A stretch of DNA of 4,776 nucleotides from a virus (taxonomy: Duplodnaviria; Heunggongvirae; Uroviricota; Caudoviricetes), in the IMG/VR virus record IMGVR_UViG_2617271086_000001, positions 1 to 4,776 of that record. One strand, 5' to 3'. The notes beneath the pieces are model-generated. The model was given only the letters and a program-made list of their open reading frames with translations, did no database searches and was not told where the DNA came from. Positions 1 through 4,776 of this stretch are shown piece by piece. Both the position numbers and the translations under genes were made by a program. The stretch's first letter is position 1. Each line of letters starts with the position of its first letter.

Positions 1-426
1 GCAAACCTTACCGTTGCTACGTCAGAACAATGGCGTGATAAGCAAACTGGAGAGCAAAAGGAGCAGACGGAGTGGCACCGTGTGGTAATGAGCGGGAAAC
101 TGGCAGAAATTGCCAGCGAATATCTGCGAAAAGGCTCTGAGGTTTATCTTGAAGGCAAATTGCGGACAAGAAAATGGCAGGATCAAAGCGGACAGGATCG
201 GTTCACTACCGAAGTCATCGTGGGCGTTGGTGGAACCATGCAAATGCTTGGTGGCAAGCAAGGAGGCAATGAACAGTCTTCACCTCAGCGAAATAACGGT
301 CAGCAACAAAGACAGCAACCTCAGCAGCAAGGGAATCACAGCGAACCACCTATGGATTTTGACGACGATATCCCCTTTGCACCAGTAACTCTCCCCTTCC
401 CTCGTCACGCTATTCACGCAATTTAA
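1..426 (+). CDS. ssb: Single-stranded DNA-binding protein, 5'-truncated by the window edge (frame 1 is open from base 1)
   Basis: Translation from base 1 gives ...[68 protein letters not shown]..., closely matching the OB-fold core of E. coli SSB as recalled from memory; Gly/Gln-rich linker; [11 protein letters not shown] acidic tip motif (nt 346-378) followed by an unusual 15-codon extension before TAA at 424-426. Confidence 0.9.
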
Positions 427-434
427 GGACTTAC

Positions 435-983
435 ATGAATCACTTAATGGTTGACCTTGAAACAATGGGCAACGGGCCATACGCGCCAGTTATTTCTATT
501 GGGGCGGTATTCTTTGACCCGAATACCGGAGAAACAGGAGAAGAGTTCTCGGTAAATATCTCGCTTGAGTCATCAATGCGATATCGGGCGCGTCCTGACG
601 CTTCAACGATTTTATGGTGGCTGGAACAGAGTGAAGAAGCCAGAAAATCGCTAACCAGCAACACTCAGGAGCTTTCAACGGCTCTTTCATGGTTATCTGA
701 ATTCATCATAAAGAACGCTAACCACAAATTCGTTCAGGTTTGGGGGAATGGAGCATCATTTGACTGCGTTATTCTCCGCAACAGTTATTCGCTGACAGGA
801 CAGCCAGTTCCGTGGCAGTGGTGGAATGACCGCGACGTAAGAACAATCGTCGAGCTTGGAAAGGTAATAGGATTTGACCCTAAGCGAGATATGCCATTCA
901 AAGGAACTCGCCACAACGCGCTTGATGATGCCATCCACCAAGCCAAATACGTTTCAGCAATCTGGAAAAAATTAGCTAAATAA
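435..983 (+). CDS. DnaQ-like DEDDh 3'-5' exonuclease (RNase T/epsilon-like fold)
   Basis: 182-aa ORF with AAGGA Shine-Dalgarno 5 nt upstream of ATG 435; Exo I-like MVDLETMG, Exo II-like WGNGASFDC, Exo III-like HNALDDAIHQAKY motifs; start 9 nt after the ssb stop. Confidence 0.75.
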   Translation: MNHLMVDLETMGNGPYAPVISIGAVFFDPNTGETGEEFSVNISLESSMRYRARPDASTILWWLEQSEEARKSLTSNTQELSTALSWLSEFIIKNANHKFVQVWGNGASFDCVILRNSYSLTGQPVPWQWWNDRDVRTIVELGKVIGFDPKRDMPFKGTRHNALDDAIHQAKYVSAIWKKLAK

Positions 984-2781: not shown

Positions 2782-3585
2782 ATGACCACTATTACCAAAG
2801 AACGTATCGAATTATTCATTAAAAATCCGCTTGAAAACGGGCTTACTCGTGGCGAACAAATGGAACTGGCACGAATTGCACTGGCATCACTGGAACGCGA
2901 ACAGATTCGCCACGAGCATGCCAAATGGTCTGACTCCACATTTGGCTGCGTTGGCCCCATTGGTCCACTGAAACACCTCTCAAAAGAGGCACTGGAAGCC
3001 GCAGCCGAACCAGACGATCTTAGCGAGTGGGCTGATATGCAGTTTCTGTTGTGGGATGCACAGCGCCGTGCTGGCATCAGCGATGCTGAAATTACCGCTG
3101 CTATGGAAGATAAATTGAAGATCAACATGGAGCGCCAGTGGCCTGAACCAAAAGATGGTGAGCCTCGCTTGCACATTAAAGAACCCGGCAACTCTCCGGT
3201 AATTCCGGATGGTTTATCCACGGTATGCGCTGAGGCTTATCAGGTTGTAGGAGTTATGGCAGATGCGCTTGGTGTATTCGGTGATGCAGCAGTACAGAAA
3301 GTTCTGGATAACCTGTCACAGCAAAAACTTGTTCACAGAGATGTGCTGCCGTTCTCGCTTCCGGTGACTCCGGATGGTTGGATAAGCTGTAGTGAGCGAA
3401 TGCCGGATAGCAAAACAGCCGTTCTTGTTGCCAGGGAGTTTGACAGGAAAGGTTACTGGCGAATGAAATGGGCGACTTACATCCCTGGGCATCCTGACGC
3501 TAATGATGGGTGGATAATTCCTGGTGCGTCGTGGAAACCGTCACACTGGATGCCGCTACCAGAGCCGCCGCAGGAGGCGAAATGA
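2782..3585 (+). CDS. MazG-like dATP/dGTP pyrophosphohydrolase domain (DUF550) fused to a C-terminal DUF551 domain
   Basis: 267-aa ORF; N-terminal all-alpha region with acidic clusters (ELARIALASLEREQIRHEH; EALEAAAEPDDLSEWADMQFLLWDAQ; MEDKLKINMERQWPEP) resembling MazG-type NTP pyrophosphatases; C-terminal DGWISCSERMPD...HWMPLPEPP matches the DUF551 signature as recalled; AAGGTGA SD at 7 nt spacing. Confidence 0.7.
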   Translation: MTTITKERIELFIKNPLENGLTRGEQMELARIALASLEREQIRHEHAKWSDSTFGCVGPIGPLKHLSKEALEAAAEPDDLSEWADMQFLLWDAQRRAGISDAEITAAMEDKLKINMERQWPEPKDGEPRLHIKEPGNSPVIPDGLSTVCAEAYQVVGVMADALGVFGDAAVQKVLDNLSQQKLVHRDVLPFSLPVTPDGWISCSERMPDSKTAVLVAREFDRKGYWRMKWATYIPGHPDANDGWIIPGASWKPSHWMPLPEPPQEAK

Positions 3586-4215: not shown

Positions 4216-4407
4216 ATGACCGATACCAGCCTGATTCCTGAGAAAGAAGTGATGAACAAGCTCGGTGTTTCATCACGTCAGACAATCTGGAACTATACCA
4301 AACGGCACGGATTTCCAAAGCCAGTCAGAACCCACCCCAAATCATACCTTCGTGAAGCTGTTGAGGGGTGGATTCTTAACGGTGGCGTTAATCAGAAATG
4401 CTCCTGA
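4216..4407 (+). CDS. xis: AlpA/Xis-family excisionase / phage transcriptional regulator (helix-turn-helix)
   Basis: 63-aa ORF with GGAG (4204-4207) at 8 nt spacing; EKEVMNKLGVSSRQTIWNYTKRHGFPKPVRTHPKSYLREAVEGWI fits the AlpA/excisionase HTH pattern (ligand-free small DNA binder, conserved FPKP and W); adjacent to the integrase. Confidence 0.8.
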   Translation: MTDTSLIPEKEVMNKLGVSSRQTIWNYTKRHGFPKPVRTHPKSYLREAVEGWILNGGVNQKCS

Positions 4408-4776
4408 TGTGCCAGAACAATTTATCAGCGTGAAGCTCATACGCTTTGCGCTGAGCCTCTATCCAGTCGTGTTTATTGTATACGGACATTATCCCGCCAA
4501 GTTCATGACCGAGCATTCGCTCAGTAACATGAGGCTCGACATTCATCTCGGACAGACGTGTAACAAGCGTTCTTCTGAAATCGTGTGTTCGCCAGTAACC
4601 GAGATCCATCCCTCCCCTTATTCTATTTACGAATCGGTTGGCTGCAGCGATGCTGATCGGTTTGTTTATGTCTTCTCCAGGGAAAAGAACATCATTGTAC
4701 GTTGTCATGGCCTTTTCGAGGAAAGGCTTAATTTGTTCGAAGATTGGACGGCGGATAACATTACCCATCTTGCTAT
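4388..4776 (-). CDS. int: Tyrosine recombinase (phage integrase), C-terminal catalytic region; 5' part lies beyond the window
   Basis: Minus-strand frame open to the window edge; HDFRRT (His-x-x-Arg box), MLGHE and VYNKHDW (catalytic Tyr region) motifs; stop at 4388-4390 (TAA on the minus strand). Confidence 0.9.
   Translation of the reverse strand, partial: SKMGNVIRRPIFEQIKPFLEKAMTTYNDVLFPGEDINKPISIAAANRFVNRIRGGMDLGYWRTHDFRRTLVTRLSEMNVEPHVTERMLGHELGGIMSVYNKHDWIEAQRKAYELHADKLFWHIRSISD

What the first reader, a model, noticed from the sequence alone, without database searches (positions are those of the whole stretch)
346..426. SSB with its conserved acidic DDDIPF tip buried behind a 15-residue C-terminal extension
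In canonical SSB the ...DFDDDIPF motif is the extreme C-terminus, and the free terminal Phe carboxylate is needed to recruit partner proteins (established knowledge). Here the reading frame continues for 15 more codons ([15 protein letters not shown]) before TAA at 424-426. This is either a sequencing or frameshift artefact, or a phage SSB variant with an occluded tip that could bind ssDNA yet fail to recruit host partners, possibly acting as a host-interfering SSB.
Basis: partly seen in the sequence, partly recalled or inferred. Interest (0 to 1): 0.5.

Follow-up and report, generated by a model that had tools for sequence, protein, structure and literature searches.

The report
Phage SSB with capped acidic tip
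The extra 15 amino acids after the normally terminal DDDIPF motif of this prophage single-stranded-DNA-binding protein are real, conserved and common among phage SSBs, and a homing endonuclease gene inserts exactly at their start in related phages, but what the extension does has not been tested.

Summary
Window 1-426 (+) is the 3' part of a P22-like prophage ssb. It reads ...[11 protein letters not shown] (346-378), then [15 protein letters not shown] (379-423), then TAA.

It is not an artefact. 115 of the 120 nearest protein clusters carry the same cap. So do phages HK75, mEp235 and epsilon34, and 273 of 5,426 complete E. coli genomes match at least 80% of window 352-434.

The cap is as conserved as the OB fold (column identity 0.85 against 0.53 for the linker). 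Its pN/pS is 0.31, with freely varying synonymous sites. The now-internal tip is still the best-conserved segment (0.94).

Caps that start with Ala-Pro occur across Proteobacteria in families that follow the host clade. They sit on at least four unrelated families of ssDNA-binding protein. About 20 of 65 dereplicated viral MDFDDDIPF proteins are extended.

In Sf6-like phages an HNH endonuclease gene sits within one codon of the F|A boundary. It gives SSB a stop right after F and reads out through the cap codons. The window is the endonuclease-free allele.

The function is inferred: most likely the cap re-specifies or gates docking of the tip. A cleavable pro-form or a degron remains possible. 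I found no literature on it.

The parts
1..237 (+). ssb, OB-fold part. The 5' end of the gene lies outside the window; about 30 codons are missing.
   Evidence: Pfam PF00436 SSB, E = 2e-25, window residues 1-79 matching profile positions 26-100. 97% identical to the 171-aa cluster P0001.
238..345 (+). Gly/Gln-rich disordered linker of SSB.
   Evidence: Read from the translation. Least conserved region, mean column identity 0.53 in 115 homolog clusters. AlphaFold2 pLDDT is below 50 from residue 109 of P0001 onward.
346..378 (+). Acidic tip [11 protein letters not shown], identical to the E. coli SSB C-terminal motif but internal here.
   Evidence: identical to the last residues of PDB 1eqq SSB. 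Most conserved region, column identity 0.94; F150, P155 and F156 invariant.
379..423 (+). 15-codon cap [15 protein letters not shown] (family 'T1').
   Evidence: Column identity 0.85; L161, F163, R165 and H166 invariant in 115 clusters. L161, P162, P164, R165 and H166 stay invariant when the Proteus and Cronobacter phages are added. pN/pS 0.31 with pS 0.61. Absent as a clean 45-nt in-frame indel from the otherwise homologous allele L161.
376..384 (+). Insertion point of the Sf6 gp26-type HNH endonuclease gene in related phages, at the F|A boundary within one codon.
   Evidence: Sf6 L001 1411-2373, CurroJimenez L002 and L412. Alignments A4 and A5. The junction codon is GAA, GAG, GCA or GCG, followed by CCAGTAACT.
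424..437 (+). TAA stop of ssb overlapping the AAGGA ribosome-binding site, then the ATG of the downstream gene.
   Evidence: The same TAAGGACT...ATG follows the uncapped allele L161.
435..983 (+). Rv2179c-like 3'-5' exonuclease gene, the immediate downstream neighbour. It is context, not shown to be a partner.
   Evidence: Pfam PF16473, E = 2.9e-73. It lies downstream of 15 T1-capped ssb genes and 1 uncapped ssb gene in the viral sample.

Best explanation
The 15 residues are a genuine, selected C-terminal cap on a prophage SSB. They turn the host-mimicking SSB tip (DDDIPF) into an internal motif.

Shown here:
1. The cap is real, widespread and constrained at the protein level about as strongly as the OB fold.
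2. The tip upstream of it stays under the strongest constraint of the whole protein.
3. Caps beginning with Ala-Pro occur on unrelated ssDNA-binding proteins of mobile elements across Proteobacteria, in families that follow the host clade.
4. The window is the endonuclease-free allele of a site where HNH homing endonuclease genes insert within one codon of the tip/cap boundary. The insertion gives SSB a stop right after Phe, and the endonuclease reading frame ends in the cap codons.

Inferred:
- Known partners of E. coli SSB dock the terminal Phe ring in a pocket and bind its free carboxylate. The cap removes that carboxylate, so it should weaken or block the generic docking of host SSB-interacting proteins such as ExoI, RecQ, PriA and the chi subunit.
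- The small-residue-plus-proline hinge and the host-clade-specific distal part probably add or select one particular contact. The capped protein would then be a partner-selective or gated tip rather than a dead one.
- The likely benefit is control over which host enzymes are recruited to phage recombination and replication intermediates. The gene sits between a recombinase gene (seen in homologous prophages) and an exonuclease plus anti-RecBCD gene.
For: Reality and spread.

Selection:
- pN/pS is 0.31 for the cap, with synonymous divergence 0.61. This argues against a DNA-level constraint.
- Column identity is OB 0.87, linker 0.53, tip 0.94 and cap 0.85 in a homology-retrieved set of 115 clusters.
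- Cap columns L, P, P, R and H remain invariant when Proteus and Cronobacter phage SSBs are added.

Generality:
They gave the T1, T2 (APLHHLAGA, Pseudomonas), APEWR (Rhizobiales), APISRLLLNII and APHFDGQF (Psychrobacter) families, among others.
- Of 121 viral MDFDDDIPF reading frames, 48 are extended; 41 of the extended hits in the 120-row scan start with AP. After 90% dereplication, 20 of 65 clusters are all-extended.
- DDDLPF+AP caps also exist.
- Caps sit on PF00436 SSBs and also on phrog_743, phrog_9002 and gp2.5-like phrog_112 proteins. The cap type follows host clade rather than protein body.
- Genomic neighbours are recombination genes: YqaJ, ERF, AAA_24, RecT, Sak and RdgC.

Endonuclease relation:
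- Sf6 and CurroJimenez gene order and sequences.
- A second lineage, 47% identical, at the same site.
- Family members found elsewhere end ...KPIYP[DE].. with unrelated short ends. Only the lineages ending ...PIYPDE[EA] carry [11 protein letters not shown]..; Sf6 and P0142 were checked and lie directly downstream of ssb.
- Junction alignments.
- A decayed remnant in Klebsiella phage phiKp_30.
- A hybrid ...[14 protein letters not shown]..., consistent with loss of the endonuclease gene.

Occlusion principle, from published work:
- SSB with GFP fused to its C-terminus binds ssDNA normally, but ExoI binding is undetectable and strand-displacement synthesis fails (PMC7293020).
- Phe177 binds partners through both its ring and its carboxylate (PMC6393309).
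Against: - No binding, genetic or proteomic data exist for any capped SSB. The mechanism rests on analogy with a bulky GFP fusion, not with a 15-residue peptide.
- Capped and uncapped alleles coexist in otherwise similar phages: upstream of the same Erf-type gene there are 42 uncapped and 31 T1-capped ssb genes. Endonuclease insertion uncaps the protein without obvious harm. The cap is therefore not essential.
- The strong conservation of the internal tip shows it still works in some way. This fits selective docking, but it fits removal of the cap by a protease equally well.
- No partner gene co-occurs consistently with the T1 cap; the downstream genes vary.
- The AlphaFold2 model was uninformative (mean pLDDT 50, tail below 35).
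Confidence: 0.55

Rival explanations
1. Cleavable pro-form. The SSB is made with a masked tip, and a protease cuts at Phe|Ala-Pro to expose the free Phe carboxylate. The tip would then become active only at a certain time or place. The released peptide would start with X-Pro.
For: - The residues just after Phe are nearly always a small residue plus Pro: 41 of the extended hits in the 120-row viral scan start with AP, and Ser-Pro occurs in many Klebsiella clusters. The rest of the cap varies by clade.
- The tip stays maximally conserved although internal, as expected if it is later exposed.
- As an analogy from general knowledge, the photosystem II D1 protein carries a short C-terminal extension that the CtpA protease removes to free a functional carboxylate.
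Against: - No cytoplasmic protease with this specificity is known to me.
- No protease gene is linked to these loci.
- The distal cap residues L-P-F-P-R-H are invariant. That is more than a leaving group needs, unless they are the recognition element.
- No proteomic evidence was found.
Confidence: 0.15
2. Degradation tag. The hydrophobic, basic C-terminal peptide targets the phage SSB to ClpXP, FtsH or Lon, limiting its lifetime.
For: - Most caps end in non-polar residues (..HAIHAI..LAGA..LLNII..AWLI).
- From memory, not tested: non-polar C-termini destabilise proteins in E. coli, and the ClpX signal of MuA is RRKKAI.
Against: - The Rhizobiales caps end in Arg or Arg-Gly (APEWR, APEWRG).
- A degron does not explain the fixed Ala-Pro hinge directly after Phe.
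- It does not explain the invariance of LPFPRH in the middle of the cap while the last five positions vary more.
Confidence: 0.1
3. Neutral passenger. The extension arose by loss of the stop codon and persists because the tip function of a phage SSB is dispensable while host SSB is present.
For: - Capped and uncapped alleles coexist in related phages.
- Endonuclease insertion switches the protein to the uncapped form.
Against: - pN/pS is 0.31 with saturating synonymous change.
- The cap is as conserved as the OB fold and far more than the linker.
- Similar caps recur on unrelated proteins and in distant clades.
- The tip is not decaying.
Confidence: 0.07
4. Deletion scar. The tail is the C-terminus of the HNH endonuclease, left fused to ssb after the endonuclease gene was deleted.
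For: - The last 14 residues are identical, at the nucleotide level too, to the end of Sf6 gene 26.
- Partly deleted endonuclease genes exist: phiKp_30 and the chimeric proteins P0131, P0134, P0144 and P0173.
Against: - HNH family members in other contexts end ...KPIYP[DE].. with diverse short ends and never carry the tail.
- Two HNH lineages only 47% identical to each other share the same tail.
- The tail occurs on diverged SSBs (Proteus and Cronobacter phages) that show no annotated endonuclease gene next to ssb.
- So the direction of capture is from ssb to the endonuclease gene. Individual alleles may still have regained the cap after endonuclease loss, as the hybrid NFDDSDIPF+cap suggests.
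Confidence: 0.03
5. Sequencing or assembly artefact, or a DNA- or RNA-level element rather than a peptide.
For: - Nothing supports an artefact.
- For a DNA element, only the last few bases overlap the downstream ribosome-binding site.
Against: - The same frame occurs in hundreds of independent genomes and phage isolates.
- Synonymous sites vary freely.
- There is no Rfam match in the window.
- The cap is found upstream of many different genes.
Confidence: 0.01

Closest known systems
E. coli SSB and its C-terminal tip (SSB-Ct, ...[13 protein letters not shown]), the docking motif for ExoI, RecQ, PriA, chi, DnaG and others
   Same: OB fold (PF00436), disordered Gly/Gln-rich linker and an 11-residue tip identical to the E. 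coli one.
   Different: The tip is not terminal. Fifteen conserved residues follow the Phe, so the free alpha-carboxylate used in the known complexes is absent. The gene lies in a prophage recombination module, not at the chromosomal ssb locus.
Shigella phage Sf6 genes 27 (SSB) and 26 (endonuclease), and Escherichia phage CurroJimenez_Bas106
   Same: The same ssb gene (97-98% nucleotide identity), the same neighbours, and the same 45 nt encoding [14 protein letters not shown].
   Different: In those phages ssb ends ...NFDDSDIPF* with a free tip. A 159-aa HNH-type gene follows and ends in the cap codons. The window lacks that gene and has the cap fused to SSB. The Sf6 record notes 14 contiguous amino acids identical to an 'E. 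coli SSB protein' but does not explain them.
Engineered SSB with GFP fused directly to the C-terminus (Dubiel et al. 2020, PMC7293020)
   Same: The tip is followed by extra polypeptide. In that construct ssDNA binding was normal and ExoI binding was undetectable.
   Different: That construct is artificial and carries a bulky folded domain. Here the extension is natural, short, conserved and host-clade-specific, with an Ala-Pro hinge. Its effect on binding is unmeasured.
Phage T7 gp2.5 and HK620 SSB acidic C-terminal tails
   Same: These are phage ssDNA-binding proteins whose last residues mediate partner contacts. The HK620 SSB needs its last six residues (NDYPPF) to stimulate its cognate annealase Sak4 (PMC5928155). 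T7 gp2.5 needs its terminal Phe (cited in bioRxiv 10.64898/2026.02.22.705581).
   Different: In those proteins the aromatic residue is the true C-terminus. No capped variant has been described for them. Here, gp2.5-like and HK620-like (phrog_743) proteins with DDDIPF+AP caps were found.
Free-standing HNH homing endonuclease genes inserted in or next to conserved phage genes
   Same: The endonuclease gene is present or absent at one precise site between otherwise homologous alleles. The sequence around the junction is recoded in the occupied allele. Decayed copies exist.
   Different: The insertion falls inside the 3' end of the host gene. It supplies a stop that restores a canonical SSB terminus, and it borrows the displaced 14-15 codons as its own C-terminus. 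Homing activity was not tested.

Membership tests
Bacterial/phage SSB (Pfam PF00436, NCBIfam TIGR00621) | OB-fold ssDNA-binding domain | tested here: met
   The window ORF matches PF00436 with E = 2e-25, and the full-length homolog P0001 with E = 7e-38. HK75 SSB, which carries the same cap, matches TIGR00621 at 166.9 bits against a cutoff of 53.95.
Bacterial/phage SSB (Pfam PF00436, NCBIfam TIGR00621) | Disordered, low-complexity linker after the OB fold | tested here: met
   A Gly/Gln/Pro-rich stretch lies at window 238-345. It is poorly conserved (0.53). Low pLDDT is only weak support, because the whole model is poor.
Bacterial/phage SSB (Pfam PF00436, NCBIfam TIGR00621) | Acidic tip motif D-D-D-I-P-F | tested here: met
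   [11 protein letters not shown] at 346-378 is identical to the end of E. coli SSB.
Bacterial/phage SSB (Pfam PF00436, NCBIfam TIGR00621) | Tip located at the extreme C-terminus, with a free Phe carboxylate | tested here: not met
   Fifteen codons follow the Phe before the stop. The same holds in 115 of the 120 nearest clusters.
Bacterial/phage SSB (Pfam PF00436, NCBIfam TIGR00621) | ssDNA binding, tetramer formation and partner recruitment | not testable with these tools
   This needs biochemistry. The AlphaFold2 monomer model was of low confidence.
Target site of a free-standing HNH homing endonuclease gene | Endonuclease gene present or absent at one precise site between otherwise homologous alleles | tested here: met
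   The window was compared with Sf6, CurroJimenez, L412 and phiKp_30. Homology runs up to the tip and resumes at CCAGTAACT.
Target site of a free-standing HNH homing endonuclease gene | Inserted ORF is an HNH nuclease | tested here: inconclusive
   There is no Pfam or NCBIfam hit. PHROG phrog_2340 'endonuclease' matches with E = 2.6e-47. The pattern CxxC...HHCDY...WLCxxCH..WH is visible by eye in 77 homologs.
Target site of a free-standing HNH homing endonuclease gene | The enzyme cleaves the empty allele and converts it during co-infection | not testable with these tools
   This needs cleavage and mixed-infection assays.
ClpX/FtsH-type C-terminal degradation tag | C-terminal recognition signal that confers protease-dependent instability | not tested
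   There is only a recalled resemblance (non-polar end; MuA RRKKAI against RHAIHAI). The Rhizobiales caps ending in Arg do not fit.

The most novel reading that the evidence does not exclude
Mobile-element SSBs of Proteobacteria include a large, undescribed class with a capped tip. A perfect copy of the host SSB docking motif is kept internal and is followed by an Ala-Pro hinge and a short cap matched to the host clade.

The cap would act as a selectivity filter or gate. Phage ssDNA coated by such an SSB would not be a landing pad for host nucleases and helicases, nor for immune sensors that exploit free phage SSB tips. It would still engage one chosen partner.

Homing endonuclease genes that insert exactly at the tip/cap boundary would toggle phages between the capped and uncapped states.
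Probability: 0.35. Interest if true: 0.8.

Novelty: new variant of a known kind. Interest (0 to 1): 0.6.

Why it matters
The free C-terminal Phe of SSB is treated as the universal handle by which more than a dozen genome-maintenance enzymes are recruited to ssDNA. A sizeable share of phage and prophage SSBs keep that handle perfectly conserved but deliberately not terminal. This suggests either an unrecognised internal mode of tip recognition or a regulated, partner-selective form of the hub.

The question is directly testable with peptides and simple phage genetics in HK75, mEp235 or Sf6. It bears on:
- how phages protect recombination intermediates;
- how defence systems triggered by phage SSBs tell phage from host (Retron-Eco8, DARNA, and DRT10, whose trigger carries a free FDDDIPF tip);
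- the choice of SSB partners for recombineering.

It also gives a clean natural example of a homing endonuclease gene that repairs the gene it interrupts by supplying a stop, and that borrows the displaced codons. For annotation, these genes are correctly called and should not be flagged as frameshifted.

Tried and rejected
- **Artefact or frameshift:** rejected on recurrence and selection.
- **Programmed frameshift at CCC-TTT-G:** considered from the sequence. The nucleotide context is not conserved among capped genes (TTT GCA, TTC GCG and others) and no alternative frame is conserved. Dropped.
- **My own earlier idea** that the endonuclease 3' end (NKPIYPDEE) is a decayed copy of the tip region: rejected. 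HNH homologs in unrelated contexts also end KPIYP[DE][DE], so those residues are native to the endonuclease.
- **Structure prediction:** AlphaFold2 of the full-length capped SSB P0001, with a 34-sequence alignment, gave mean pLDDT 50 and a tail below 35. It says nothing about docking of the cap.
- **PDB sequence search with tip plus cap:** only the tip matches canonical SSBs and engineered fusions; nothing matches the cap.
- **Rfam on the window:** no match.
- **Literature:** searches for Sf6 + homing endonuclease + ssb, DDDIPF + phage + extension, SSB + IPF + prophage, phage SSB + acidic tip, and the string IPFAP found no description of the extension.
- **Consistent partner gene:** downstream genes of T1-capped ssb vary (exonuclease, abc2 and several small ORFs). 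Upstream recombinases are the same for capped and uncapped alleles. No candidate emerged.
- **Beta-clamp-binding motif in the cap:** compared by eye with the consensus recalled from memory (QL[SD]LF). The enterobacterial cap lacks the Gln and the spacing. Not pursued.
Full report
**1. Observation**

The + strand is open in frame 1 from base 1. It encodes the C-terminal 141 residues of an SSB: an OB fold (PF00436, E = 2e-25), a Gly/Gln-rich linker, then [11 protein letters not shown] at 346-378.

The frame continues with [15 protein letters not shown] (379-423) to TAA at 424-426. That stop overlaps the AAGGA ribosome-binding site of the next gene (ATG at 435).

**2. Context**

The window is the early-left region of a P22-like/lambdoid prophage:
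- ssb, 1-426
- an Rv2179c-like 3'-5' exonuclease, 435-983
- the anti-RecBCD gene abc2, 1000-1296
- DUF7739, 1878-2177
- an Ead/Ea22-like gene, 2179-2586
- a dATP/dGTP pyrophosphohydrolase-DUF551 protein, 2782-3585
- a small helix-turn-helix gene, 4216-4407
- the 3' end of a tyrosine integrase on the minus strand, 4388-4768

In the most similar complete E. coli prophage, a Rad52/Erf-type recombinase gene lies directly upstream of ssb. NCBI's PGAP pipeline calls the capped gene an ordinary 171-aa ssb.

**3. Not an artefact**

- A protein search with the window ORF returned 120 nearest clusters (90% identity clustering; 74-97% identical to the query) from E. coli, Klebsiella, Citrobacter and Salmonella.
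- 115 of them end in [AS]PVTLPFPRH[AT][IV][HY][AV][IL]. The top cluster holds 1,030 member sequences.
- 407 of 5,426 complete E. coli genomes match window 352-434, and 273 of them over at least 80% of it.
- Sequenced phages HK75, mEp235, mEpX2, epsilon34, g341c, ECP1, HZ41 and CP-1639 match the extension at 93-99% nucleotide identity; HK75 was confirmed by translation.
- Proteus phage vB_BPM-V3 has a quite different SSB body and ends ...[21 protein letters not shown]. Cronobacter phage JK004 (94 kb) ends ...[21 protein letters not shown].

**4. Selection**

On 45 distinct tip-plus-cap DNA sequences the cap has pN/pS = 0.31 with pS = 0.61. Synonymous sites vary freely, so the constraint is on the peptide, not on the DNA. 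The first five cap codons were partly fixed by the search filter; the last six, which were not, give 0.33.

The homology-retrieved set of 115 clusters is not biased by any motif filter on the tip. Mean pairwise column identity there is:

| Region | Column identity |
|---|---|
| OB fold | 0.87 |
| Linker | 0.53 |
| Tip | 0.94 |
| Cap | 0.85 |

L161, F163, R165 and H166 of the cap are invariant. So are F150, P155 and F156 of the tip.

Two conclusions follow. The cap is a functional peptide. The tip, although internal, has not been released from constraint.

**5. Generality**

It gave three groups:
- T1: AP[VI][GT]L[PQM][FY]P..[AL]I..[ILV], about 15 residues
- T2: AP[LH]HHL[AN]G[AVG], 9 residues
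- a set of short caps: APEWR, APAWLI, APCM and others

*Frequency.* An unfiltered scan for MDFDDDIPF gave 121 readable reading frames. 73 stop right after Phe and 48 continue; 41 of the extended hits in that scan start with AP. After dereplication at 90% identity there are 20 all-extended clusters, 44 canonical and 1 mixed.

*Host clades.* In GTDB genomes the caps sort by host clade:
- Pseudomonas: APLHHLAGA or APISRLLLNII
- Rhizobiales: APEWR(G), APEVR
- Enterobacterales, Alteromonadales and relatives: T1 variants such as APIGLQYPALLLAM
- Psychrobacter: APHFDGQF
- Alcaligenaceae: APLLARCEYVI

*Neighbours.* Upstream genes are phage recombination genes (YqaJ 11, ERF 7, AAA_24 5, RecT 3, plus Sak, RdgC and Gp157). 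These are prophage recombination modules, and no chromosomal-type neighbour ranked among the frequent families.

*Protein bodies.* The same cap type occurs on non-homologous ssDNA-binding proteins within one host clade: PF00436 SSBs, phrog_743, phrog_9002 and gp2.5-like phrog_112.

*Other tips.* DDDLPF tips with AP caps also exist.

**6. The endonuclease connection**

- In Sf6 and CurroJimenez_Bas106 the same ssb gene (97-98% nucleotide identity) ends ...PPMNFDDSDIPF*.
- Nine bases later a 159-aa gene starts (Sf6 gene 26; PHROG 'endonuclease', E = 2.6e-47). It ends ...[26 protein letters not shown], and its last 45 nt are identical to window 382-426.
- A search with gp26 found 77 homologs. Those in other contexts share the Cys/His core up to ...WHKHNKPIYP[DE].. 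and then end in unrelated short sequences.
- Only the lineages ending ...PIYPDE[EA] carry the cap. These include a second lineage only 47% identical to gp26; Sf6 and P0142 were checked and lie directly downstream of ssb.
- Hence the cap codons belong to ssb and were captured by the endonuclease reading frame, not the reverse.
- The junction codon is GAA, GAG, GCA or GCG, followed by CCAGTAACT. The insertion point is therefore within one codon of the Phe|Ala boundary (window 378/379).
- Upstream, the occupied alleles carry a recoded tip (NFDDSDIPF or NFDDEIPF) and a stop.

Several related states were found:
- Klebsiella phage phiKp_30 holds an internally deleted remnant.
- Chimeric SSB-HNH and HNH-exonuclease proteins exist.
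- One protein has the endonuclease-type tip fused to the cap, [14 protein letters not shown]....
- One viral allele, L161, has the same tip and the same downstream exonuclease gene but lacks exactly the 45 cap nucleotides.

The window is the endonuclease-free, capped allele of a polymorphic site. In a cap-anchored sample, about 27 of 117 hits were in the endonuclease context.

**7. How it most likely works**

*Shown.* The cap and the tip are both under selection. The cap begins with a small residue plus proline almost everywhere. The rest of the cap follows the host clade rather than the protein body. Capped and uncapped forms coexist in related phages: upstream of the same Erf-type gene there are 42 uncapped and 31 T1-capped ssb genes.

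*Established elsewhere.* Partners dock the terminal Phe through its ring and its carboxylate (PMC6393309). [quoted passage not shown] Phage annealases use SSB tails: Red-beta binds SSB-Ct, and Sak4 needs the last six residues of HK620 SSB.

*Inferred.* The cap removes the free carboxylate. That should weaken the generic docking of host SSB-interacting proteins. The conserved tip, the Ala-Pro hinge and the host-specific distal residues together form a composite motif that either selects one partner or gates access to the tip.

I put about 0.5 on this selective or gated reading. It sits within an overall 0.55 for the whole statement. The descriptive parts are much firmer: real and selected about 0.95, endonuclease relation about 0.9.

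*Speculative lead.* A recent preprint reports that a phage SSB-like protein with a free FDDDIPF tip is needed to trigger the DRT10 defence system, together with the host exonuclease SbcB (bioRxiv 10.64898/2026.04.29.721553). Capping could be one way to avoid such tip-dependent effects.

**8. Rivals**

- **Cleavable pro-form, cut at Phe|Ala-Pro (0.15).** It explains the fixed hinge and the conserved tip equally well. Mass spectrometry would separate it from the main reading.
- **Degradation tag (0.10).** It fits the mostly non-polar ends. It does not fit the Arg-ending Rhizobiales caps or the invariant middle of the T1 cap.
- **Neutral read-through (0.07).** Contradicted.
- **Deletion scar of the endonuclease gene (0.03).** Contradicted, although single alleles may have regained the cap after endonuclease loss.
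- **Artefact or DNA element (0.01).** Refuted.

**9. Comparison with what is known**

The protein is an SSB by fold, linker and tip. It fails one defining feature of the canonical architecture, the terminal position of the tip.

I found no paper describing the extension. I rate it a new variant of a known kind: common in databases but unrecognised.

**10. Verdict**

Its interest lies in the conserved internal tip, the host-matched caps and the endonuclease that uncaps the protein. The mechanism is open but easy to test. Interest 0.6.

Noticed in passing
L414 8185-8713 (E. coli EC38, NZ_CP200347.1): The complete E. coli prophage most similar to the window is integrated directly next to sbcB. 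That gene encodes exonuclease I, the best-studied enzyme that binds the SSB tip. This is probably a coincidence of attachment-site choice.
   Followed up: no
P0131, P0134 (SSB-HNH chimeras); P0144, P0173, P0180, P0183 (HNH-exonuclease chimeras); L006 1040-1247: Many partly deleted copies of the gp26-type endonuclease gene exist. They produce chimeric reading frames with ssb or with the downstream exonuclease gene. This is the decay phase expected of a homing endonuclease gene.
   Followed up: partly
L003 2049-2441 (Salmonella phage 103203_sal5); L411 560-1027: Other, unrelated HNH endonuclease genes sit in the same recombination module. One lies downstream of an uncapped ssb (...NFDDEIPF*). 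One, an HNH_3 gene, lies between the Rad52-like gene and ssb. The module looks like a hotspot for such genes.
   Followed up: no
window 4216-4407 (+) and 4388-4768 (-): A small AlpA/helix-turn-helix (excisionase-like) gene converges on the integrase gene, and their 3' ends overlap by 20 nt. The integrase is transcribed opposite to the early-left operon.
   Followed up: no
window 2782-3585 (+): One ORF combines a dATP/dGTP pyrophosphohydrolase domain (PF04447) with a C-terminal DUF551 domain.
   Followed up: no
window 435-983 (+): An Rv2179c-like 3'-5' exonuclease gene starts 8 nt after the ssb stop. In the viral sample it lies downstream of 15 T1-capped ssb genes and only 1 uncapped ssb gene. 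That could be linkage or a functional pairing.
   Followed up: partly
L250 and L279 (IMG/VR loci): Two loci have the cap preceded by unrelated residues (...[14 protein letters not shown]... and ...NLCTGSFAPVTL...). This suggests frameshifted or rearranged ssb genes upstream of an intact cap.
   Followed up: no
L414 5860-6141: The related E. coli prophage carries a DNA polymerase III theta-like pseudogene with an internal stop, in the region that corresponds to the right part of the window.
   Followed up: no
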